A DNA stretch of 64,000 nucleotides from an uncultured Candidatus Saccharibacteria bacterium. GTDB taxonomy: Bacteria > Patescibacteriota > Minisyncoccia > Phycocordibacterales > UBA9973. The position numbers and the translations under genes were made by a program. Position 1 is the stretch's first letter; each line of letters begins with the position of its first letter. Positions 1 through 62,968 of this stretch are shown piece after piece. The stretch spans positions 11,762-75,761 of the forward strand of contig CAYVZI010000001.1 in assembly GCA_964456475.1 (NCBI GenBank), read 5' to 3'. The notes below the pieces were generated by a model. It was not told where the DNA came from and made no database searches. It worked only from the letters and a program-made list of their open reading frames with translations.

Positions 1-124
1 CAGATTTACTTAGCCTAACTCCTCGACCAATATTTGTGCAGTACCAGTAGAGTTTCAATATCTAAATCCTAATTTCTAATGTCTAAAACTAGGTTCTTGA
101 AAAAGGAATCTGTATAATTATTAT

Positions 125-1345
125 ATGAAATTAAAAACAAAAATTGCATTTATCGGTGGTTCAATTGCACTACTGCTCGGTGTGTTGGTTTTGGGTATAG
201 CTATCGGTTATGCGCATCGACCATACGTTAGTAGAATCATGAGCGTTGTCGACAAAGAGGTACCTACTGATATCAAGGCTGATTTTGAACCGTTTTGGCA
301 GGTGTGGAGTATGATAGACCAAGAGCACCCTGGTGCAGAAAAAGTATCGTCAGAGGATCGTGTCTATGGTGCAATAAAAGGACTCGTAGATTCGTTGAAT
401 GATCCATATTCTGTTTATATGCCTCCTCAGGAATCAAAAGATTTCAACGATATTATCTCGGGAACATTTGGTGGTATTGGTTTGGAAATCGGAATAAAAG
501 ATAAGATTATTACGGTAATCGCTCCACTAAAGGATGCTCCAGCCGAAGAGGCAGGAATAAAGTCTGGTGATAAGATTCTCAAAATTGATTCACTTCCGAC
601 AAACGATATGTCTGTCGACAAGGCTGTACATATTATCCGCGGTGTTCCTGGTACTGTTGTAAAACTTACTATACTGCGAGGTGATGAAGGTCAACCACAA
701 GAGATCGCAATTACTCGTGCAGACATTTCTATTCCAACACTTGATGCAAAATTGAGAAGCGACGGAATTTTTACAATATCACTGTACAATTTCGGTGCAC
801 TATCTGCTTCATTATTGCGTGATGCATTGCATCAGTTCAATGATAGTGGTTCAACAAAGCTCATTATAGATCTCCGTGGTAATCCAGGTGGCTATCTTGA
901 TTCCGCTGTAGATATGGCAAGTTTCTTTCTTGCTGAAGGCGAAACGGTCGTAACCGAAGACTTTGGAACAAATGGATCTCCACGTGTGTATCGCAGTAAG
1001 GGATATCGATTGATAGATATGAAGAAGACAAAGGTTGTGGTCTTGGTGGACAAGGGTTCAGCTTCTGCTTCTGAAATTCTCGCTGGTGCACTTTTGGAAC
1101 ATGGTGTTGCTCCAATCATAGGCGAAACAACATATGGAAAAGGGTCAGTGCAGAAAGTCATCGAAGTAACGGATACAACATCTCTAAAGCTTACTGTTGC
1201 AAAATGGCTCACTCCAAATGGAGTCTCTATTTCCCAAAAAGGAATCGAACCAACAATCGAAGTGGTCACTACCGATGAGCATATAAAAAACAAGGTTGAT
1301 CCAGTCCTTGATCGCGCGGTAGAGTATCTTAAGACAGGGAAGTAG
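125..1345 (+). CDS. S41-family C-terminal processing peptidase (CtpA-like) with PDZ domain and N-terminal TM anchor
   Basis: 406-aa ORF. PDZ-like GIKSGDKILKID, S41 motifs GNPGGYL and DKGSASASEI, and an N-terminal hydrophobic helix. Confidence 0.85.
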   Translation: MKLKTKIAFIGGSIALLLGVLVLGIAIGYAHRPYVSRIMSVVDKEVPTDIKADFEPFWQVWSMIDQEHPGAEKVSSEDRVYGAIKGLVDSLNDPYSVYMPPQESKDFNDIISGTFGGIGLEIGIKDKIITVIAPLKDAPAEEAGIKSGDKILKIDSLPTNDMSVDKAVHIIRGVPGTVVKLTILRGDEGQPQEIAITRADISIPTLDAKLRSDGIFTISLYNFGALSASLLRDALHQFNDSGSTKLIIDLRGNPGGYLDSAVDMASFFLAEGETVVTEDFGTNGSPRVYRSKGYRLIDMKKTKVVVLVDKGSASASEILAGALLEHGVAPIIGETTYGKGSVQKVIEVTDTTSLKLTVAKWLTPNGVSISQKGIEPTIEVVTTDEHIKNKVDPVLDRAVEYLKTGK

Positions 1346-1346
1346 G

Positions 1347-1456
1347 AGGTGCTAGCTTCTAGGGTCTAGGTTCTGGAAACTAAATTTGAGCATCAAGAAA
1401 AACAGCACACTTGTGCTGTTTTTCTACTAAACCCTAATCCCTAGACCCTAACCCCT
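1347..1456. repeat. CTAGG/TTAGGG-type palindromic element wrapping an intrinsic terminator
   Basis: G-arm ggtgctagcttctagggtctaggttctgg at 1347-1375. Inverse C-arm aaaccctaatccctagaccctaacccc at 1430-1456. Hairpin aaaaacagcacacttgtgctgttttt lies between them. Confidence 0.7.
1397..1426 (+). terminator. Rho-independent terminator after the S41 peptidase gene
   Basis: Stem cagcacac/gtgtgctg followed by a T-run. Confidence 0.75.
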
Positions 1457-1477
1457 CTTTGATGTAATATAAAGCTC

Positions 1478-19776: not shown

Positions 19777-19808
19777 CTAGCGCCTAAAGCCTAGAGCCTA
19801 ACGCCTAG
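19777..19808. repeat. CTAGG-type element, single C-arm
   Basis: ctagcgcctaaagcctagagcctaacgcctag, preceded by the hairpin cccctccttggtaaaggagggg. Confidence 0.6.
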
Positions 19809-23987: not shown

Positions 23988-24046
23988 TCTAGGAATTAGT
24001 GATTAGGGATAAGGGAGTAGTGCCACAAATCCGCAATAAAAAATAA

Positions 24047-39524: not shown

Positions 39525-39530
39525 ATTTCA

Positions 39531-39606
39531 GGGTTTAGGTGCTAGGGTTTAGGGGTTAGCAATTCGCACTCACTATACCCTAAACGCTATACCCTATACC
39601 CTAGCT
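39531..39606. repeat. CTAGG/TTAGGG-type palindromic element (G-arm, 16-nt spacer, C-arm)
   Basis: gggtttaggtgctagggtttaggggttagc ... ccctaaacgctataccctataccctagc. Confidence 0.7.
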
Positions 39607-42670: not shown

Positions 42671-42763
42671 ATATGAAGATAGTATACAGTATTTAGTATA
42701 CGGTATACAGTATTTCACAGTTTTATACTGTATACAAAATACAACATACTGTATACTGTATCC
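42671..42763. promoter_or_regulatory. divergent mntH/corA control region with five or six iterated ATAC-N-GTAT palindromes
   Basis: gtatacagtat at about 42682 and 42703, the variant gtatacggtat at 42696, and atactgtatac at 42725 and 42747-42757. Confidence 0.55.
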
Positions 42764-43675
42764 ATGATTTCACGTTACGCACATCAAGGGCTTACTTGGA
42801 TCGACCTCGAATCACCAACCCGTGATGAGGTTTCCGTTCTTTCAGAAGAATTTGAACTGCATCCGATCATTTCGAGTGAATTACTTGAAACATCTGAACG
42901 CGCAAAAGTGGATTTGTATGAGAATGCAATATATCTCATTCTGCATTTTCCAATTCGCAACCGCACTACAGGACATATCCAGGAGACAGAGATCGACTTT
43001 GTGCTTCTCAAAAATACTCTTATTACCACACACTACGAGCTTGTTGACCCACTTCACGATTTCGCCCGATTATTTGAAGTAGACAGCTTCTTGAGTAGCT
43101 CAAAACTCACTGAACACACCGGGTTCCTATTCTTTACTCAAATCCGCGAATTATATAAGCACACACTCTTTCTAGTTGAAGGATTGACTCACGATATTCG
43201 CGAGATTGAAAAGCAAATCTTCGCAGGTAAAGAAAGCGAGATGGTGATGGAAATATCAAAAGCCAATCGAGAAATAATAGATATCAAACAAGCACTTCGC
43301 GCTCACAAAGAAACGCTAAAATCCTTTGCAGACACATGCATCAAGATATATGGCCAAGATTTTTCTTACTATATCAATATGATTGAAGGTGAATATGCTC
43401 GTATCGAACAGATACTTTCGGAAAATCGCGATATGATTCACGATCTTCGTCGCACAAACGACTCCTTGCTTTCAGTCAAGACAAACAATACCCTTCGCTG
43501 GCTTGCGGCTGTCAACGTAGTACTTATGCCAATCGGTATTATTGCTTGGATTTTTGCTATGCAATCTCGATTCCTCTATCTAGATGAACCACATCAGCTT
43601 CTAACCGCTTTTGGTATAATGATTGCAATACCAGTCATTTTGATTATCTATTTCCGCCGAAAAAAGTGGCTCTAG
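42764..43675 (+). CDS. CorA-like divalent cation transporter (divergent, with FAMQ in place of the canonical YGMN)
   Basis: CorA-like length, a cytoplasmic domain followed by 2 C-terminal TM helices, and a KKW tail. Confidence 0.65.
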   Translation: MISRYAHQGLTWIDLESPTRDEVSVLSEEFELHPIISSELLETSERAKVDLYENAIYLILHFPIRNRTTGHIQETEIDFVLLKNTLITTHYELVDPLHDFARLFEVDSFLSSSKLTEHTGFLFFTQIRELYKHTLFLVEGLTHDIREIEKQIFAGKESEMVMEISKANREIIDIKQALRAHKETLKSFADTCIKIYGQDFSYYINMIEGEYARIEQILSENRDMIHDLRRTNDSLLSVKTNNTLRWLAAVNVVLMPIGIIAWIFAMQSRFLYLDEPHQLLTAFGIMIAIPVILIIYFRRKKWL

Positions 43676-54488: not shown

Positions 54489-55916
54489 TTACCCCAATAA
54501 TTCTTTCAAAATTTTTGTAGCGAGAGCTGGGTTTGCAGAACCTTTTGTCTCTTTCATCATCTGACCCACGAGGCTCATGAGTGCATTTTCTTTTCCACCT
54601 TTATATGACTCTGCCGCCTGTGCATTTGTATCGATTATCTTCTGTGCGATTTCTTTGAGTGCACCTTCGTCATTTTTCTGAAGCAAATCTTTTTCGGTAG
54701 CAATTACAATTGGCGAACCATCTTCGACAACAATCATCGCAAGAATATCTTTTGCTGCGCGTGAAGAAATCTTGTTGTCAGCAAAAAGGGTTACCAATTC
54801 GGCAAAGTTTTCTGGGCTCGGCAATCGTATGTCAGAATTCGTCTTTTTCAAACCCACATAATCGGATGTAATATAGTTTGATGCAACTTTTATTTTTTCA
54901 GCATCCTTCAACACACCTGCAACTTTTTCAAACCAAAGCGCAAGTTCATAATCATTGATATACGTTTCGATATCCTCCGCCTTAATGCCATATTCATTCG
55001 CATATCGAGCACGCTTAGCCACAGGAAGCTCTGGCAATTCCTTGCGTAAGGCATTGGTATCAAACATTTCCGAAAGCATAAATTTCGGAATATCTGGATC
55101 AGGGAAATAGCGGTATTCCTGGGCAGATTCTTTTGCACGCTGAGAAAATGTACTCTGTTTGCTGTCATCCCAACCTCGCGTTTCTTTGACAATCTCTCCT
55201 TCTCGTCCAGCTTCGTAAAGCTCAATCATACGAGCGACTTCATAGCGAATCGCCTTCTCCGCGCTCTTAAATGAGTTGATGTTCTTTACTTCGACATAGG
55301 TAGTGAGCTTGCCTTTCTCTGTTGAGACAGACACGTTCACCTCCACACGAAATTCTCCTTTTTCCATGTTTGCATCTCCTGCACCAAGGTACTGAAGAAG
55401 AAGTTGATATTCTTTGGCAAAATTTGCGCCAACATTCGCTGCTTCATCTACAGAATCAAATGTGTGTGGCTCAGTGACAAGCTCCATGAGCGGTACACCA
55501 GCACGGTTGAAGTCAACGAGTGAGTAATCGCCTCGGTCATGCTTACTCGTTGCAGTATCTTCTTCAAGATGAATGCGATGAATCTTCATTCCAGCAAGCT
55601 CTCCACCTGAAACGATAGGATATTTGAATTGGGAAATCTGATACCCCTTTGGAATGTCTGGATAGAAATAACTTTTGCGATCAAATTCGGTAAAATTTGC
55701 AATTGTACCCCCTACAGCAAGCCCCACTCGGATGACTTGCTCCATGGCGCGTTTGTTTGGCACAGGAATAGTGCCTGGATGTGCCATACACACAGGACAG
55801 ATGTTCACATTCGGATTTTTCTCATCCGGGTCGTTCTTACAGCCACAAAACATCTTTGAGTTTGTTTTGAGTTCGGCGTGGATTTCAAGACCGAGAGTTG
55901 GATAATATGTGTTCAT
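54489..55916 (-). CDS. gatB: aspartyl/glutamyl-tRNA(Asn/Gln) amidotransferase subunit B
   Basis: MNTYYPTLGLEIHAEL..CGC plus a GatB/YqeY C-terminus. Confidence 0.95.
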   Translation of the reverse strand: MNTYYPTLGLEIHAELKTNSKMFCGCKNDPDEKNPNVNICPVCMAHPGTIPVPNKRAMEQVIRVGLAVGGTIANFTEFDRKSYFYPDIPKGYQISQFKYPIVSGGELAGMKIHRIHLEEDTATSKHDRGDYSLVDFNRAGVPLMELVTEPHTFDSVDEAANVGANFAKEYQLLLQYLGAGDANMEKGEFRVEVNVSVSTEKGKLTTYVEVKNINSFKSAEKAIRYEVARMIELYEAGREGEIVKETRGWDDSKQSTFSQRAKESAQEYRYFPDPDIPKFMLSEMFDTNALRKELPELPVAKRARYANEYGIKAEDIETYINDYELALWFEKVAGVLKDAEKIKVASNYITSDYVGLKKTNSDIRLPSPENFAELVTLFADNKISSRAAKDILAMIVVEDGSPIVIATEKDLLQKNDEGALKEIAQKIIDTNAQAAESYKGGKENALMSLVGQMMKETKGSANPALATKILKELLG

Positions 55917-55920
55917 AGTA

Positions 55921-55988
55921 GGGTTTAGGTTTTAGGTGTTAGGGTTTAGTAATTCGAATTGTATTTCTAAATCCTAGACCCTAACCCC
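55921..55988. repeat. CTAGG/TTAGGG-type palindromic element
   Basis: gggtttaggttttaggtgttagggtttag-N17-ctaaatcctagaccctaacccc. Confidence 0.7.
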
Positions 55989-55990
55989 TG

Positions 55991-56995
55991 TTATTTTAGG
56001 TATTTCTTAATATTTGCGAGGTGTTCGGCGTAGGTTTTCGCGTAATGGATAGTACCATTTTTGTCATGAAGATAATAGAGGTACGGTGTTGTGCTGTAAT
56101 TCACTGCAGCAGTCAATGCATCAAGGCCTGGATTGGATATCGGAGCCGGTGGAAGCCCCTTGTGGAGATAGGTATTAAAGGGCGAAACTACAGAAAAATC
56201 AGCTTTCTTGAGTGGTCCATTTGGCTTATTCACTGCATAAGCCACAGTAGCATCTACCTGCAGTCTCATACCTTTTGCAAGACGACTCCACAAAATACTC
56301 GAGATAATTGTTCGGTCTCCGACTCCTCGAGCCTCTTTCTCGATGATTGAAGCCATGATAACAATTTCTTGTTTTGTATGATTTCCCATTGAATCAGCTG
56401 AAAATAGATTCTTTGTCTTTAAATCAAACATTGCTCTCATTTCATCAACGATGTCAGATGGTTTTGTTTTTGAATAAATAAAATAAGTTTCTGGAAAAAG
56501 ATATCCTTCATGTGCTTTTGCTGAAAGCAAAAAATCTTCGGTGGCAAAATCAGAAATTTTTTCGGAAAGAATCTCGCTCATTTCCAAAACCGAAGTACCT
56601 TCCGGAATTGTAATCTTTATCGGTTTCAAATTGTGCACGCCAAAGGCGATTTGGCGTGCGACTGCAAATACTGAAATCGGTCGGTCGAAGAAATAATCGC
56701 CCGGAGGAACCTTCATATCCTTACCATAAAAAGTTACGAGCGTAGAAAAGAGTGCACGTGACCGAATATACTGTTTGTTCGACAATTCTGTGCCAACACT
56801 CTTCAGGCTCTGTCCGGGTGTTATCGTAAAGACTGTCTCACCTTCTGGAAAATCTGACGGGGCCGACAACGCAAAAACAAAAACGGCAATTACCGCAATA
56901 ACACCAAACACTCGACCGAGCCGATTCCGCTTTTGCGGAATCGGCTCGAGAGCTGTATTTTCTTCTGTATTCAGAACTGAATTATCTGACTCCAT
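55991..56995 (-). CDS. mltG: endolytic murein transglycosylase MltG (YceG-like)
   Basis: N-terminal TM helix and a YceG domain pattern. Confidence 0.8.
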   Translation of the reverse strand: MESDNSVLNTEENTALEPIPQKRNRLGRVFGVIAVIAVFVFALSAPSDFPEGETVFTITPGQSLKSVGTELSNKQYIRSRALFSTLVTFYGKDMKVPPGDYFFDRPISVFAVARQIAFGVHNLKPIKITIPEGTSVLEMSEILSEKISDFATEDFLLSAKAHEGYLFPETYFIYSKTKPSDIVDEMRAMFDLKTKNLFSADSMGNHTKQEIVIMASIIEKEARGVGDRTIISSILWSRLAKGMRLQVDATVAYAVNKPNGPLKKADFSVVSPFNTYLHKGLPPAPISNPGLDALTAAVNYSTTPYLYYLHDKNGTIHYAKTYAEHLANIKKYLK

Positions 56996-58904: not shown

Positions 58905-58966
58905 AAAATCACGAGAAAAAAGCCCCCTGTTTTACAGAAGGCCTTAATAAAAAGCAAAATAGATAG

Positions 58967-59614
58967 TTACAGATACTGCAAGATAATAAAAGACAACATT
59001 AGAAGTAAAGATATAACACTCAAAATAGCGGTGAGATTTTTGTTATCAGTAGTAAAGGCAAAAATCATAAAACTCATAACACCAGCACCTATACTCAATA
59101 ACGGAAAATCAGCGATAAAGCCGATACTACTAAAAAATGTCACTAATGCAATAGCTGTAGCAAATAATGCATACATTATACAAAATATTCTCGACGAAAA
59201 ATTGCATAATATCATACAAAGAATAGATAGTGCCGCCAAAAACAAATGCCACGCGAAGAGTACTGAGGCAGAGCTTCCGTTATTACCCACAGCAACAATA
59301 GTGCTACCAGTAAGTAAAATGCCTTGCGTATATTCTTCGCAAACATATATCTCAACCAAGTTTTTCATTTTACTAGAGCGGATTTTCCGCTCTCCAACAG
59401 CAATTGTATCACCAGGATGGTCGATAGCTTGCTGAAAGAACGCATTATATTGCTCCGCATCCTTTGCGACAAAAATACCAGTGTTTTCATATGTCACCAG
59501 AGTATCAGGTGCGATGCGATAGTTTCCGTCTGAAGACTTCTGCAATTGCCGTTGAGCAAAAAGAGATGTTGCGGTTATCAATGCAACAACGCAGAACAAT
59601 ACTATTCTTTTCAT
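58967..59614 (-). CDS. hypothetical protein with signal peptide, ~100-aa ectodomain and 3 C-terminal TM helices
   Basis: Hydropathy pattern only. Confidence 0.5.
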   Translation of the reverse strand: MKRIVLFCVVALITATSLFAQRQLQKSSDGNYRIAPDTLVTYENTGIFVAKDAEQYNAFFQQAIDHPGDTIAVGERKIRSSKMKNLVEIYVCEEYTQGILLTGSTIVAVGNNGSSASVLFAWHLFLAALSILCMILCNFSSRIFCIMYALFATAIALVTFFSSIGFIADFPLLSIGAGVMSFMIFAFTTDNKNLTAILSVISLLLMLSFIILQYL

Positions 59615-59734
59615 ATTTTTAAGTTTTTAAAGTTTACATGTATTATATCACTTAAATTGTATATAGTCAAATCCCCCGCGAGCTAAGCTCTTGGGGGATT
59701 TGACTTGTTTTAATGCTTTTGTGTTTTCTTGTGG

Positions 59735-60922: not shown

Positions 60923-62023
60923 TTAGCTGACAAGTCGAACGATGTCATGGAATGTCACGTAGAGCATCAGTAGAATAAGCAAAAGAAAACTAACCTTATT
61001 CAGACCGACAATTACTTTGGTTGGAATGCGAGAACGTCCGTTTTTTGCAAAAAATTCCATAATACAACGCCCTCCATCAAGAGCCGGGATTGGCAACAAA
61101 TTGATGACAGCCAAATTGATCGAGATAAGTGCAACAAACGAAAGGAATGATCCAAATCCAAGTGAATATGCCTGACCTGCAATTTGAGCGATCCCGATAG
61201 GACCAGACACCTGTCCGACCATACTATCCCCACCACCAAACGAACTTGAAATAAGGAGACCGAGTGATTCAATAATGTGCACAAACTGATTTCCAGTGTA
61301 AGTAATTGCAACTTTCATTGATTGCCAGAATGGAAGGCGGACGTGAGTAACTTCGGCGAGACTAATACCCACTGTTGGCGTATCACCTACTTTTTCTGCT
61401 TTTGGAACAACAACAAATGACTCACTGTTCCCGCTTCTATCTACAGTAAAAACAATCGAGCCAGTCGAATGTGCTTTGATAAAATGAACGACATCGGAAA
61501 CAGTTTTTGGTGTCGATGTATCTTTTGCACTAGCGAGCGCTACAACAGAATCACCGGTACGCAGTCCAGCAATCTCTGCCGGGCTGTTCTTTGCAACCGA
61601 TGAGATGATAGTTGTATCTCCCCCAATAGTAACCGCATCTGGAAATTCGCCAGACTGCGCGAGAAATCCAATTGAAAATGAGCCAATATATAAAACGACT
61701 GCAATCACAAGATTGGCGACAACTCCAGCAAGCACAACGGCGATACGTTTCCACAATTTCTGATACGAAAAAAGAGTCGAGGTGTCTGACTGCCCTACTT
61801 CGGTCAGTTCTTCTCCGTAAATCTTTACAAAACCACCGAATGGAAGCCAGTTGAGCGAAAAAAGTGTTCCCTTCCAGGTGAAGAGTTTTTTTGCACGTGG
61901 CGGATACCCTATTCCAAATTCGTCTACACGGATACCAAAAGCTTTGGCAACAAAAAAATGCCCGAGCTCATGCCCGACAACGAGCACTACTATTACGATA
62001 AGGAAAATGAGGATGGTTTGCAT
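60923..62023 (-). CDS. rseP: RIP metalloprotease RseP (M50 site-2 protease with PDZ)
   Basis: HELGHFFVAKAFG (HExxH), an internal PDZ, and an LDG motif near the C-terminus. Confidence 0.9.
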   Translation of the reverse strand: MQTILIFLIVIVVLVVGHELGHFFVAKAFGIRVDEFGIGYPPRAKKLFTWKGTLFSLNWLPFGGFVKIYGEELTEVGQSDTSTLFSYQKLWKRIAVVLAGVVANLVIAVVLYIGSFSIGFLAQSGEFPDAVTIGGDTTIISSVAKNSPAEIAGLRTGDSVVALASAKDTSTPKTVSDVVHFIKAHSTGSIVFTVDRSGNSESFVVVPKAEKVGDTPTVGISLAEVTHVRLPFWQSMKVAITYTGNQFVHIIESLGLLISSSFGGGDSMVGQVSGPIGIAQIAGQAYSLGFGSFLSFVALISINLAVINLLPIPALDGGRCIMEFFAKNGRSRIPTKVIVGLNKVSFLLLILLMLYVTFHDIVRLVS

Positions 62024-62029
62024 AAGAAG

Positions 62030-62058
62030 GTTCTAGGATCTAGCTTCTAGGTTCTAGT
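62030..62058. repeat. CTAGG-type element arm overlapping the 3' end of the four-helix-bundle gene
   Basis: ggttctaggatctagcttctaggttctag. Confidence 0.65.
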
Positions 62059-62390
62059 TTAATAATCATAACTCGCAACATTTTGCTTACTTCTTCGAGT
62101 AATTCAAGGTGTGACTGAATACTTAATGAATACAAATCTCGACAAAGAAATAATTGAGTCTCAAGCTCTGAAGCGGAGCCATATGATAAGCACAAAAAAT
62201 GTGCGTAATCTTTTCGAGTCTTACGACTTGAACCTTCTGCAATATTCGAGATGATTGAAACACTGGCTCTCCTCATCTGAGACTGAAGAGCATATATTTC
62301 CATTTGAGGAAGTTGAATTTGATAGACAAGCTTAGTAAGATCATAAGCCTTTTTCCAAACTGTCAGATCTTTATACGAATTAAGTGACAT
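62040..62390 (-). CDS. four-helix-bundle protein (23S rRNA intervening-sequence protein family, TIGR02436-like)
   Basis: YKDLTVWKKAYDLTKLVY...LQSQMRRASVSIISNIAEGSSRKTRKDYAHFL..GSASELETQL matches the family consensus. Confidence 0.8.
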   Translation of the reverse strand: MSLNSYKDLTVWKKAYDLTKLVYQIQLPQMEIYALQSQMRRASVSIISNIAEGSSRKTRKDYAHFLCLSYGSASELETQLFLCRDLYSLSIQSHLELLEEVSKMLRVMIIKLEPRS

Positions 62391-62398
62391 TTTGTATT

Positions 62399-62433
62399 CT
62401 CTAGAACCTAGACCCTAGAAACTAGCACCTAGT
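62399..62433. repeat. CTAGG-type element arm just upstream of the four-helix-bundle gene
   Basis: tctagaacctagaccctagaaactagcacctag, inverse to 62030-62058. Confidence 0.65.
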
Positions 62434-62968
62434 TCATTACTTCTTGTTCCTTTGTTTCAAATACACTTTCGAGTTTTGCGTTCGCGTCAGTTACGCGTTT
62501 TTGAATTTCATCTTTCGTACGACGGTCATCATCTTCTGGAAGTTCCTCTGATTTCAATTCACTCATTGCAGTCTCGCGTTCTTTACGAACACTCACACGA
62601 GCATCTTCGAGCTTTTCCTTGAGTACTTTTACAAGTCTTGAACGATTTTCTGTGGTGAGTGTTGGGAAAATCACACGCATGCCATCACCGTCTACAGCAA
62701 GTGACACACCGAGGTTAGCAGCGGCAATTGCACGCTCAACATCCTTGATCACGCTCTTATCCCAACACATAACGCGAAGCGTTTTTGCGTCTTCAATATT
62801 GACCGAGCCCACGTTCTTGATTGGCTGAAACGATCCATAGGCTTCCACCATTACGCCATCAAGGTACGCCGGCGATACACGACCGGTATGCAAGCGCGAA
62901 TACTCGCGTGCGAGCCATTCGACTGATTCTTTTAATCCATTGTCTAAAGTTGTGTAATTGAATGCCAT
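62429..62968 (-). CDS. frr: ribosome recycling factor
   Basis: RRF-typical length and pattern ...LHTGRVSPAYLDGVMVEAYGS... Confidence 0.9.
   Translation of the reverse strand: MAFNYTTLDNGLKESVEWLAREYSRLHTGRVSPAYLDGVMVEAYGSFQPIKNVGSVNIEDAKTLRVMCWDKSVIKDVERAIAAANLGVSLAVDGDGMRVIFPTLTTENRSRLVKVLKEKLEDARVSVRKERETAMSELKSEELPEDDDRRTKDEIQKRVTDANAKLESVFETKEQEVMN

What the first reader, a model, noticed from the sequence alone, without database searches (positions are those of the whole stretch)
62028..62433. Four-helix-bundle (23S rRNA IVS-family) gene bracketed by inverted CTAGG/TTAGGG-type repeat arms between rseP and frr
The 116-aa gene matches the consensus of the four-helix-bundle family named for its occurrence in 23S rRNA intervening sequences. 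It is wedged between rseP and frr with 16-bp and 38-bp gaps. Inverse repeat arms flank it: ggttctaggatctagcttctaggttctag on one side and tctagaacctagaccctagaaactagcacctag on the other. Pairing of the arms would enclose the whole ORF in a long stem, as in an RNase III-processed rRNA IVS, but here the setting is an mRNA. It looks like an inserted cassette, or an RNase III-regulated transcript, carrying a gene of unknown function.
Basis: partly seen in the sequence, partly recalled or inferred. Interest (0 to 1): 0.7.

Follow-up and report, generated by a model that had tools for sequence, protein, structure and literature searches.

The report
Hairpin-enclosed gene cassette inside an operon
A small gene of the family first seen inside ribosomal-RNA "intervening sequences" sits here between two housekeeping genes, enclosed by matching 30-base arms made of 7-base repeats; close relatives have the same site empty or filled with a different version, and the same gene-plus-arms design recurs in other phyla, so it is a discrete, replaceable element and not an ordinary gene.

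Summary
ORF 62040..62390(-) is a PF05635/TIGR02436 four-helix-bundle (4HB) protein. It lies 38 nt after frr and 16 nt before rseP, between 30-nt arms that are 83% complementary.

The arms are arrays of 7-nt CTAGnnn units. The frr stop codon is the outermost unit. The last 6 codons of the ORF lie in the other arm.

Arms plus gene behave as one unit. Most relatives fetched by frr have frr and rseP 1-10 nt apart with no arms. A relative with 98-99% identical flanking proteins carries a different cassette at the same junction, 67% nt identical, and divergence starts and ends at the outer arm ends.

Of 76 homologous cassettes, 68 have complementary 7-nt-period arms in a locus-specific sequence. They usually lie between co-directional cistrons, with the upstream TAG stop in the first unit. 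Cyanobacterial plasmids and a true Azospirillum 23S rRNA IVS show the same design. Published Coxiella IVS data show heptamers and RNase III cleavage.

Best reading: an IVS-type cassette living in an mRNA operon. RNase III excision here is inferred, not shown. Gene-less heptad hairpins at other cistron junctions in the window point to a wider element family. I found no paper describing this.

The parts
62401..62432 (-). 5' arm in the sense of transcription: five CTAGnnn heptads. It pairs with 62028-62057. The outermost CTAG (62429-62432) contains the frr stop codon TAG (62429-62431).
   Evidence: fold
62391..62400 (-). 10-nt spacer (AGAAUACAAA) between the 5' arm and the ATG of the four-helix-bundle ORF. 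It has no clear Shine-Dalgarno sequence.
   Evidence: read directly from the sequence
62040..62390 (-). 116-aa four-helix-bundle protein gene (PF05635 / TIGR02436). The last 6 codons (CTA GAA CCT AGA AGC TAG, 62040-62057) lie inside the 3' arm.
   Evidence: AF2 model with pLDDT 91 and four helices; Foldseek matches to 2GSC, 2RLD and DGR Avd 8UB7_E; all invariant columns of 26 homologues are kept
62028..62057 (-). 3' arm: four CTAG heptads complementary to the 5' arm. It ends 4 nt before the rseP ATG (62021-62023).
62429..62968 (-). frr (ribosome recycling factor), the upstream cistron. It terminates on the first heptad of the arm.
   Evidence: empty-site comparison
60923..62023 (-). rseP-type M50 protease, the downstream cistron. 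It starts 4 nt after the 3' arm.
1343..1458 (+). Gene-less heptad hairpin between the S41 peptidase stop and rplI. Its 5' arm is 27/29 identical to the cassette's 5' arm. The loop holds a terminator-like hairpin.
   Evidence: fold -43.2 kcal/mol, z -5.7
39526..39606 (+). Gene-less heptad hairpin filling the dnaB stop to recR ATG spacer.
   Evidence: fold -32 kcal/mol, z -4.6
55915..55992 (-). Gene-less heptad hairpin between the stop of 55991..56995(-) and the ATG of 54489..55916(-).
   Evidence: fold -20.3 kcal/mol, z -3.5
42672..42766 (+). Gene-less heptad hairpin with a second repeat unit sequence (TAGTATA / TATACTG).
   Evidence: fold -34.4 kcal/mol, z -6.1

Best explanation
This is an IVS-type cassette living in a protein-coding operon instead of an rRNA gene. 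The unit is [about 30-nt arm of 7-nt repeats] - [four-helix-bundle ORF] - [complementary arm]. It lies exactly between the frr stop codon and the rseP start codon, on the same strand.

Shown:
- Arms and gene are gained, lost or replaced together among close relatives.
- The arms are complementary, 7-nt periodic and locus-specific across the gene family.
- The first repeat supplies the upstream gene's TAG stop.
- The downstream gene starts a few nt after the second arm.
- The same design occurs in true 23S rRNA IVSs.

Inferred:
- The cassette is transcribed by read-through as part of the holB-frr-rseP transcript.
- The arms pair into a long imperfect dsRNA stem with small internal loops every 7 bp.
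- RNase III cuts that stem, as shown experimentally for the Coxiella rRNA IVS. This would release the cassette RNA and leave a frr message ending just after its stop and an rseP message with a very short leader.
- An insertion that would otherwise break a tightly coupled gene pair would thereby be tolerated.

By homology with XCC0516 and DGR Avd, the encoded protein is probably a pentameric RNA-binding ring. Its role (binding its own stem, or helping spread) is unknown. Gene-less heptad hairpins at other cistron junctions in the same genome look like ORF-less relatives of the cassette.
For: Unit of gain, loss and replacement:
- 17 of 24 frr-fetched relatives have a 1-10 nt frr-rseP spacer with no arms. 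This includes L011 (frr 95%, rseP 96% aa).
- L176/L177 have frr 97.8%, rseP 98.9% and sigma 99.7% aa identity to the window, and the right flank is 98.3% nt identical over 2.3 kb. Their cassette is only 66.8% nt and 66% aa identical and its repeat units differ in sequence. Divergence begins at the frr stop and ends 2-5 nt before the rseP ATG.
- The two 4HB alleles each have closer relatives elsewhere (72-75%) than each other.

Family-wide anatomy:
- 68/76 cassettes have arm complementarity above every shuffle. The cognate median score is 14 against 7 for non-cognate pairs.
- Duplex energy is -35.4 kcal/mol for cognate arms and -20.8 for non-cognate arms.
- The inverted score beats the direct score in 69/76.
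- Lag-7 autocorrelation is 0.43/0.41 against a background of about 0.28.
- Loop lengths of complementary array pairs peak at 350-400 nt.
- The upstream co-directional stop lies within -8..+6 nt of the arm start in 51/63, and it is TAG in 53/63 against 19/50 in controls. The downstream start lies within -10..+30 nt of the arm end in 62/69.

Other phyla and rRNA:
- Cyanobacterial plasmid copies have heptad arms.
- Azospirillum L168 lies inside LSU rRNA (896 bits) and has 36-nt, 86% complementary heptad arms 397 nt apart.
- The Coxiella IVS has a 28-bp stem, GACAGAT heptamers of variable number and an RNase III cut at the first repeat (PMC4990558).

Fold: the long-range stem is present in both the MFE and the centroid structure.

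Protein.
Against: - No transcript-end or RNase III data exist for this uncultured organism. No rnc gene is visible in the window by motif.
- Mismatches in the arms show no G-U bias: 43 G-U-type, 57 A-C-type, 219 other. So there is no signature that selection acts on the sense RNA rather than on DNA or on the repeat units themselves.
- A few family members have flanking heptads in direct orientation, which cannot pair: L165, L166, L113, L114, L152.
- The >=64%-identity subfamily is confined to this operon, and its 4HB identity rises with frr identity. Long vertical residence with recombinational exchange therefore fits the data as well as active transposition.
- No target-site duplication is visible.
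- In Coxiella the ORF is decaying and probably untranslated (PMC4990558), whereas here it is strongly conserved. The rRNA precedent may therefore not transfer fully.
Confidence: 0.6

Rival explanations
1. The arms are docking sites for the encoded protein. The pentameric four-helix-bundle ring would bind the periodic stem, or the single-stranded UAGnnnn array, of its own transcript and of the gene-less hairpins. It would thereby autoregulate or form an RNP. The 7-nt period and the 4-5 units per arm would reflect the five protomers. This is compatible with RNase III processing rather than exclusive of it.
For: - The DGR Avd pentamer binds an RNA stem-loop through all five protomers, with flipped-out bases docking in the crevices between protomers (bioRxiv 10.1101/2023.10.23.563531).
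- The model matches 2GSC and Avd.
- The arms have invariant TAG cores (mismatch 0.5-9%) alternating with 4 variable nt (mismatch 20-32%). This gives imperfections every 7 bp (folds).
- The median paired arm is 29 nt, about 4 units.
- Arm polarity is fixed relative to the ORF: the 5' arm has G>C in 61/69.
- Gene-less arrays are 5-fold denser in 4HB-bearing loci.
Against: - There are no binding data.
- The variable part of the heptad differs widely among cassettes whose proteins are 45-70% identical, and the TAG core is replaced in other lineages (GGTGACA, GACAGAG, CAGTGGC). A single conserved recognition code is therefore unlikely.
- The periodicity could come from replication slippage alone.
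Confidence: 0.3
2. The arms act at the DNA level. They would be terminal inverted repeats or hairpin/cruciform recombination sites used by an enzyme encoded elsewhere, or simply substrates for homologous exchange through the flanks. RNA pairing would be incidental.
For: - Three states (present, absent, replaced) occur at one site among near-identical genomes.
- Two near-identical cassettes lie on either side of one gene in L105.
- Dispersed gene-less hairpins share the same repeat unit sequence; site 1's arm is 27/29 identical to the cassette arm.
- The arms show no G-U bias.
- Divergence is raised in the last 27 nt of frr and in the left flank (94.2% against 98.3%), which is consistent with a recombination tract.
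Against: - There is no target-site duplication, and no transposase or recombinase within +/-5 kb.
- The 4HB protein has no known catalytic motif.
- The strict co-orientation with host cistrons and the stop/start geometry are not expected of a purely DNA-level element.
Confidence: 0.2
3. The repeats are ordinary intergenic hairpins of this genome (terminators, REP-like elements), and the 4HB gene merely happens to lie between two of them.
For: Heptad hairpins without a gene occur at several other junctions in the window.
Against: - In 644 kb of frr-fetched loci the strict CTAG array occurs only around 4HB genes.
- Empty sites lack both arms.
- 68/76 family members carry cognate arms, and the loop-length peak equals the ORF length.
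- No U-run follows the 3' arm.
Confidence: 0.04
4. It is an orphan accessory protein (Avd) of a diversity-generating retroelement.
For: There is weak sequence similarity and clear fold similarity to Avd: phrog_3206 at E 8.7e-5, PF22296 hits on homologues, and 8UB7_E at TM 0.77.
Against: There is no reverse transcriptase and no template/variable repeat pair within +/-5 kb. The neighbours are mreB, holB, frr, rseP and a sigma-like gene. The protein scores far better on PF05635 than on Avd models.
Confidence: 0.03

Closest known systems
23S rRNA intervening sequences that carry an S23p / 23S_rRNA_IVP ORF (Coxiella burnetii helix-45 IVS, PMC4990558; Leptospira IVS of Ralph & McClelland 1993, cited from memory; Azospirillum lipoferum copy seen here, L168)
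   Same: - The protein family is the same.
- The ORF is enclosed by 28-36-nt terminal inverted repeats about 350-400 nt apart.
- The arms are built from tandem heptamers whose number varies between strains.
- Distribution among close relatives is sporadic.
- No usable Shine-Dalgarno sequence lies outside the stem.
   Different: - The host transcript is a protein-coding operon, not rRNA.
- The repeat carries stop codons (TAG in all three frames on both strands) and provides the upstream gene's stop. rRNA copies use GACAGAG-type units without stops.
- The ORF is under strong conservation here but is decaying in Coxiella.
- RNase III cleavage has been shown only for the rRNA elements.
Avd, the accessory protein of diversity-generating retroelements (PDB 4DWL, 8UB7)
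   Same: Four-helix-bundle fold and probably a pentameric ring. In the DGR RNP it binds an imperfect RNA stem-loop through all five protomers.
   Different: No reverse transcriptase or template repeat lies nearby. Sequence similarity is marginal. The gene is flanked by its own inverted heptad arms.
REP/REPIN elements and their RAYT genes (from my own knowledge: Nunvar 2010; Bertels & Rainey 2011)
   Same: A gene bracketed by inverted copies of a short repeat that is also dispersed as gene-less hairpins in intergenic spacers of the same genome.
   Different: RAYT is an HUH/Y1 transposase, whereas the 4HB protein has no catalytic motif. The repeats here are tandem 7-mers, not a single palindrome. 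The cassettes sit precisely between coupled cistrons.
Intergenic heptamer repeats described without a linked gene: TAACTGA in Beggiatoaceae, cyanobacteria and Bacteroidetes (PMC4679880); GGGAATC / GGGGAYT in Xanthomonas and Nostoc (PMC4692102); cyanobacterial STRR (from memory)
   Same: 7-nt tandem units, mostly intergenic, often ending 1 nt before a start codon, and found in lineages that also carry many PF05635 genes.
   Different: Those papers describe direct arrays and do not mention 4HB/S23p genes. A link to the cassettes is a lead that was not tested here.

Membership tests
PF05635 / TIGR02436 four-helix-bundle (23S rRNA IVS protein) family | Scores above the curated HMM cut-offs | tested here: met
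   PF05635 scores 107.7 bits against a cutoff of 33.8. TIGR02436 scores 95.4 against 24.
PF05635 / TIGR02436 four-helix-bundle (23S rRNA IVS protein) family | Up-down four-helix bundle like XCC0516 (2GSC) and BT_0352 (2RLD) | tested here: met
   The AF2 model has pLDDT 91 and helices 6-23, 29-54, 59-87 and 92-112. Foldseek gives 2GSC at TM 0.85 and rmsd 1.1, and 2RLD at TM 0.79.
PF05635 / TIGR02436 four-helix-bundle (23S rRNA IVS protein) family | Conserved RxxxSxxxNxxE motif (PMC3936711) | tested here: met
   R41-S45-N49-E52 in ...RRASVSIISNIAEG... These columns are invariant in 26 homologues.
PF05635 / TIGR02436 four-helix-bundle (23S rRNA IVS protein) family | Homopentameric ring | not tested
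   Only a monomer was modelled. The pentamer is known for 2GSC and Avd (literature).
rRNA intervening sequence (IVS) element | Inserted in a 23S (or 16S) rRNA helix | tested here: not met
   The cassette lies between frr and rseP. There is no Rfam hit in the window.
rRNA intervening sequence (IVS) element | Terminal inverted repeats that enclose the whole element in a long stem | tested here: met
   The arms are 30 nt and 83% complementary. The stem is kept in the MFE and centroid folds.
rRNA intervening sequence (IVS) element | Tandem heptamers in the arm upstream of the ORF (Coxiella) | tested here: met
   Five CTAGnnn units lie upstream of the ORF. The same holds in Azospirillum L168 and in Coxiella (PMC4990558).
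rRNA intervening sequence (IVS) element | Excision by RNase III without religation | not testable with these tools
   No RNA data are available. No rnc gene was seen in the window.
rRNA intervening sequence (IVS) element | Sporadic presence among close relatives at a fixed site | tested here: met
   The site is empty in L011, holds allele A in the window and holds allele B in L176.
DGR accessory protein Avd | Adjacent reverse transcriptase and template/variable repeats | tested here: not met
   The genes within +/-5 kb are mreB, holB, frr, rseP, a sigma-like gene and unknowns.
REP/RAYT-type system | The gene flanked by the repeat encodes an HUH/Y1 transposase | tested here: not met
   The only Pfam hit is PF05635.
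IS/MITE-type transposon | Target-site duplication at the insertion and a transposase gene | tested here: not met
   The filled/empty alignment shows no duplication. No transposase lies nearby.
Intrinsic terminator | G+C-rich stem followed by a U run | tested here: not met
   The 3' arm is followed by CCUUCUUAUG, the rseP start.

The most novel reading that the evidence does not exclude
PF05635 four-helix-bundle genes and heptad hairpins together form one very widespread element system. In this reading the gene-carrying hairpin is the full form. The rRNA IVS, the cassettes inside mRNA operons and the gene-less heptad hairpins (and possibly the unexplained intergenic heptamer arrays of cyanobacteria, Xanthomonas and Beggiatoaceae) are all variants of it.

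The elements settle exactly between a stop and the next start codon. The stem base brings the two codons together and carries stops in all frames. RNase III excision and/or shunt-like re-initiation would then keep the interrupted operon working. The pentameric protein would recognise the 7-bp-periodic stem.
Probability: 0.3. Interest if true: 0.85.

Novelty: new variant of a known kind. Interest (0 to 1): 0.72.

Why it matters
The 23S_rRNA_IVP / S23p family is large: 27,741 representatives at 50% identity. It has had no function for 30 years beyond its relative Avd, and the origin and mobility of rRNA IVSs are unresolved.

If the same element also lives between cistrons of ordinary operons, several things follow:
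- IVSs are one habitat of a general element, not an rRNA peculiarity.
- The repeated reports of this gene as 'cas-associated' (PMC3936711, PMC10910872) may simply reflect insertions into operons. Searches show heptad arrays flanking the copies inside cas operons: complementary arms in two of the three looked at, direct-orientation arrays in the third.
- A concrete source is suggested for intergenic heptamer repeats.
- Testable models exist in culturable cyanobacteria, using RNase III mutants and end-mapping.
- Annotation pipelines and operon predictions in CPR genomes should treat these cassettes and hairpins as insertions.

Tried and rejected
- G-U against A-C bias in arm mismatches, meant to decide between RNA-level and DNA-level selection, showed no bias (43 against 57). 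The test is uninformative.
- A target-site duplication was sought in the filled/empty/replaced alignment. None was found.
- An Rfam scan of the window gave no hit.
- An RNase III signature motif search in the six-frame translation of the window found nothing. Presence of rnc in this genome is therefore unknown.
- PADLOC gave no defence-system match.
- Exact-protein look-ups of the window's frr and sigma-like proteins, meant to find more near-identical strains, returned only the same Logan contig.
- I asked whether gain or loss explains the empty site. 4HB identity scales with frr identity among distant carriers, which would fit vertical descent. Against this, the window's own clade is otherwise empty with TAA stops, and L176 carries a different allele. 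I could not decide between repeated insertion and recombinational exchange.
- An alignment-based covariation test of the arms was not attempted, because gain and loss of whole heptads makes column homology unreliable. I used cognate against non-cognate scores and duplex energies instead.
- Seven literature searches found no paper describing 4HB genes with heptad arms outside rRNA. Ralph & McClelland 1993 is not held in the library.
- The SD-mimic idea (heptads resembling the extended Shine-Dalgarno sequence) was dropped, because many repeat unit sequences (TAGCGTA, TAGTGGC, GTAATTA) do not fit it.
Full report
**1. Observation**

The region reads as the first-stage reader described it. On the minus strand, frr (62429..62968, PF01765) is followed by a 116-aa ORF (62040..62390) and then by an M50/PDZ RseP-type protease gene (60923..62023). 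The ORF matches PF05635 23S_rRNA_IVP (E 4.3e-31) and TIGR02436 'four helix bundle protein'. The gaps are 38 and 16 nt.

The repeat finder returns arms 62028-62057 and 62401-62430: 30 nt, 83% complementary, 343 nt apart. The arms are not merely 'CTAGG-type'. They are arrays of 7-nt units CTAGnnn, four on one side and five on the other. CTAGN3CTAGN3CTAG occurs six times in the window, five of them in the two arms, against none in 100 shuffles. CTAG itself is under-represented (65 sites against 232 expected from composition).

Because CTAG is a palindrome and 7 is not a multiple of 3, three units give TAG in all three frames on both strands. The frr stop codon is the outermost unit. The last six codons of the ORF (LEPRS*) lie in the other arm, which ends 4 nt before the rseP ATG. 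The MFE and centroid folds of the 441-nt region both keep the long-range stem. The arms alone fold at -34.5 kcal/mol (z -4.25), as 4-12-bp helices separated by small internal loops.

**2. The cassette is a unit of gain, loss and replacement**

I fetched 80 loci through frr. The organism is an uncultured Patescibacteria (CPR) bacterium of the Paceibacteria/Nomurabacteria type.

- In 17 of 24 relatives examined, the frr stop and the rseP ATG are 1-10 nt apart, with no 4HB gene and no arms. This includes L011, whose frr is 95% and rseP 96% identical...AACTAAccgaATG.
- L022 (frr 55% identical) has a 64%-identical 4HB gene at the same junction, again between CTAG-heptad arms.
- The closest homologues in the 5.8-billion-protein collection lie in the same operon: L174 frr|4HB|rseP, L170 frr|ORF+4HB|rseP, L173 just before holB.

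The decisive case is L176/L177, two independent assemblies. Their frr, rseP, holB and sigma-like proteins are 97.8, 98.9, 97.6 and 99.7% identical to the window's, and the right flank is 98.3% nt identical over 2.3 kb. The cassette between frr and rseP, however, is only 66.8% nt / 66% aa identical, and its arms use different repeat units (TAGGGTT/TAGGTTT). In the alignment, divergence begins at the frr stop TAG and ends 2-5 nt before the rseP ATG. The two 4HB alleles each have closer relatives elsewhere (72-75%) than each other.

One junction therefore exists in three states among near-identical genomes: empty, allele A and allele B. I cannot tell whether this reflects site-specific re-insertion or exchange by recombination through the flanks. 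The last 27 nt of frr and the left flank are more diverged (94.2%), which hints at a recombination tract. Among distant carriers, 4HB identity also scales with frr identity. No target-site duplication is visible.

**3. The arms belong to the gene family, not to this locus**

A metagenome scan with an alignment of homologues gave 80 further loci at 44-68% identity.

- Nearly every copy is flanked upstream by (TAGnnnn)n and downstream by the reverse complement. The four variable bases differ from locus to locus (TAGGTGA, TAGCGTA, TAGTGGC, TAGCTTn, CAGTGGC...).
- 68 of 76 cassettes have flank complementarity above every shuffled control. The cognate median score is 14 against 7 for non-cognate pairs. 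Lag-7 autocorrelation is 0.43/0.41 against about 0.28.
- Duplex energy is -35.4 kcal/mol for cognate arms and -20.8 for non-cognate arms. Inverted similarity beats direct similarity in 69/76.
- In 1.02 Mb of fetched DNA, the loop lengths of complementary heptad-array pairs peak at 350-400 nt, the size of the ORF.
- The median paired arm is 29 nt. A co-directional upstream gene ends within -8..+6 nt of the arm start in 51/63 cases, and its stop is TAG in 53/63 (controls 19/50). A co-directional downstream gene starts within -10..+30 nt of the arm end in 62/69.
- The TAG core almost always pairs (mismatch 0.5-9%), while the variable positions mismatch in 20-32% of cases. The stem is therefore imperfect with a 7-bp period.
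- Arm polarity is fixed relative to the ORF: the 5' arm has G>C in 61/69.
- Mismatches show no G-U excess, so I have no direct sign that selection acts on the sense RNA.

**4. Beyond CPR, and the link to rRNA IVSs**

tblastn against plasmids found 29 records, mostly heterocystous cyanobacteria. Eight were inspected.

- Four cyanobacterial copies have complementary heptad arms: Anabaena sp. 90 (GGTGACA/TGTCACC, between cas6 and cas4), Nostoc edaphicum (TAGGGAG/CTCCCTA, between ribonucleotide reductase genes), Picosynechococcus (between cas10 and cmr3) and Calothrix (TAGGGTG/CACCCTA).
- Two have heptads in direct orientation (Pseudanabaena, Gemmatirosa), and one is unclear.
- The Azospirillum lipoferum hit lies inside LSU rRNA (RF02541, 896 bits). 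It is a true IVS with 36-nt, 86% complementary arms 397 nt apart, built from GAGGACG/GATGACA units.

For the Coxiella burnetii IVS, Warrier et al. report a 28-bp terminal stem, two or three GACAGAT heptamers upstream of the S23p ATG that vary among strains, and RNase III cleavage at the first repeat (PMC4990558). The window's cassette therefore has the anatomy of an rRNA IVS but sits in an mRNA. There its repeats additionally carry stop codons.

**5. Gene-less hairpins**

The window holds at least four paired heptad hairpins without an ORF:

| Coordinates | Position | Note |
|---|---|---|
| 1343-1458 | S41 peptidase \| rplI | loop holds a terminator-like hairpin |
| 39526-39606 | dnaB \| recR | |
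| 55915-55992 | between two minus-strand genes | |
| 42672-42766 | spacer before 42764..43675(+) | second repeat unit sequence |

Their folds have z scores from -3.5 to -6.1. There are also three unpaired arrays.

The first three hairpins again fill the space between a stop codon and the next start codon. The 5' arm at 1346-1374 is 27/29 identical to the cassette's 5' arm. Arrays not adjacent to a 4HB gene are five times denser in the window and in 4HB-bearing loci (about 20 per 100 kb) than in the frr-fetched loci (3.9 per 100 kb). This comparison is not controlled for taxonomy. The hairpins look like ORF-less relatives of the cassette, as ORF-less IVSs are to ORF-bearing ones, but I have not shown common descent.

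**6. Protein**

The AF2 model (pLDDT 91) is a four-helix bundle. It matches XCC0516 (2GSC, a pentamer), BT_0352 (2RLD) and, more distantly, DGR Avd (8UB7_E, 4DWL). The sequence keeps all invariant columns of its homologues, including RxxxSxxxNxxE. No reverse transcriptase lies within 5 kb, so it is not a DGR component. In the DGR RNP, the Avd pentamer grips an imperfect RNA stem-loop with all five protomers (bioRxiv 10.1101/2023.10.23.563531). That makes RNA-stem binding a reasonable guess for this protein, but only a guess.

**7. Mechanism**

Most likely (about 0.6): an IVS-type cassette that is transcribed by read-through. Its arms would form an RNase III substrate, so the insertion is cut out of the polycistronic RNA and the flanking cistrons survive. 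The stop-bearing repeats terminate the upstream reading frame.

- Shown: discreteness, turnover, arm complementarity, periodicity, stop/start geometry and the shared design with rRNA IVSs.
- Inferred: transcription context, RNase III cleavage and the protein's role.

The rivals are protein docking on the periodic stem (0.3, compatible with the main model), DNA-level recombination sites (0.2), ordinary host hairpins (0.04) and orphan Avd (0.03).

A further idea is worth testing. The stem base places the upstream stop next to the downstream start. This could preserve the translational coupling seen in the 1-10-nt empty sites.

**8. Novelty**

rRNA IVSs with this ORF, the presence of the gene in cas loci, and intergenic heptamer repeats have each been reported separately (PMC4990558, PMC3936711, PMC4679880, PMC4692102). 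In seven full-text searches I found no description of the gene-plus-heptad-arm cassette in protein-coding operons or of its turnover. The library is incomplete, so earlier notice elsewhere cannot be excluded. I rate this a new variant of a known kind. The family has 27,741 representatives at 50% identity, so the design may be very common.

Noticed in passing
window 58912-59666: A segment of about 750 nt, carrying a 215-aa membrane-like ORF (58967..59614) and its own hairpin, is absent from both close relatives L011 and L176. It has no heptad arms, so it is a separate indel.
   Followed up: partly
window 1343-1458: The heptad stem between the S41 peptidase gene and rplI encloses a canonical terminator-like hairpin (13-bp stem plus U run) in place of a gene. 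Its 5' arm is 27/29 identical to the cassette's 5' arm.
   Followed up: partly
window 42672-42766: A second heptad repeat unit sequence (TAGTATA / TATACTG) forms a very stable hairpin (-34.4 kcal/mol, z -6.1) in the spacer before the gene at 42764.
   Followed up: partly
window 62-87; 19777-19808; 23990-24017: Unpaired heptad arrays (CTAAnnn / CTAGCGC-CTAAAGC / TAGGAAT-TAGTGAT). The one at 19777-19808 overlaps the stop of the M23 peptidase gene. No partner arm was found. The first array may have its partner beyond the window edge.
   Followed up: no
L129 1800-2420 and L110 2040-3730: Heptad hairpins whose cores are CAG/CTG instead of TAG lie in frame inside a large ORF resembling a type IIG restriction-methylase or BREX methylase. 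In L110 a 4HB cassette appears to split such a gene.
   Followed up: no
L105 2000-3430: Two roughly 98%-identical 4HB cassettes lie on either side of a PrgI-like gene. One copy has a CAA-to-TAA nonsense change. The inner arms are shared, and the outer heptads differ in number and sequence.
   Followed up: partly
L162, L164, L165 (cyanobacterial plasmids): 4HB genes flanked by heptad arrays are wedged inside cas operons (cas6|4HB|cas4, cas10|4HB|cmr3); the flanks are complementary arms in L162 and L164 and direct-orientation arrays in L165. This may account for published 'CRISPR association' of 23S_rRNA_IVP genes. In L163 the cassette is antisense between ribonucleotide reductase genes.
   Followed up: partly
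L165 and L166: In Pseudanabaena and Gemmatirosa the flanking heptad arrays are in direct orientation, with up to 14 tandem units. Pairing is therefore not universal in the family.
   Followed up: no
L170 2169-2474; L082 and L084: In some frr|rseP cassettes an extra ORF of about 100 aa or more lies between the 5' arm and the 4HB gene, so the hairpin can enclose additional cargo.
   Followed up: no
L038 4560-4732: A Saccharibacteria relative has a gene-less heptad hairpin (GATTGAG / CTCAATC type, loop 115 nt) directly after frr.
   Followed up: no
window 1-64000: No Rfam family reaches its gathering score anywhere in the 64-kb window (no tRNA, riboswitch or leader).
   Followed up: no
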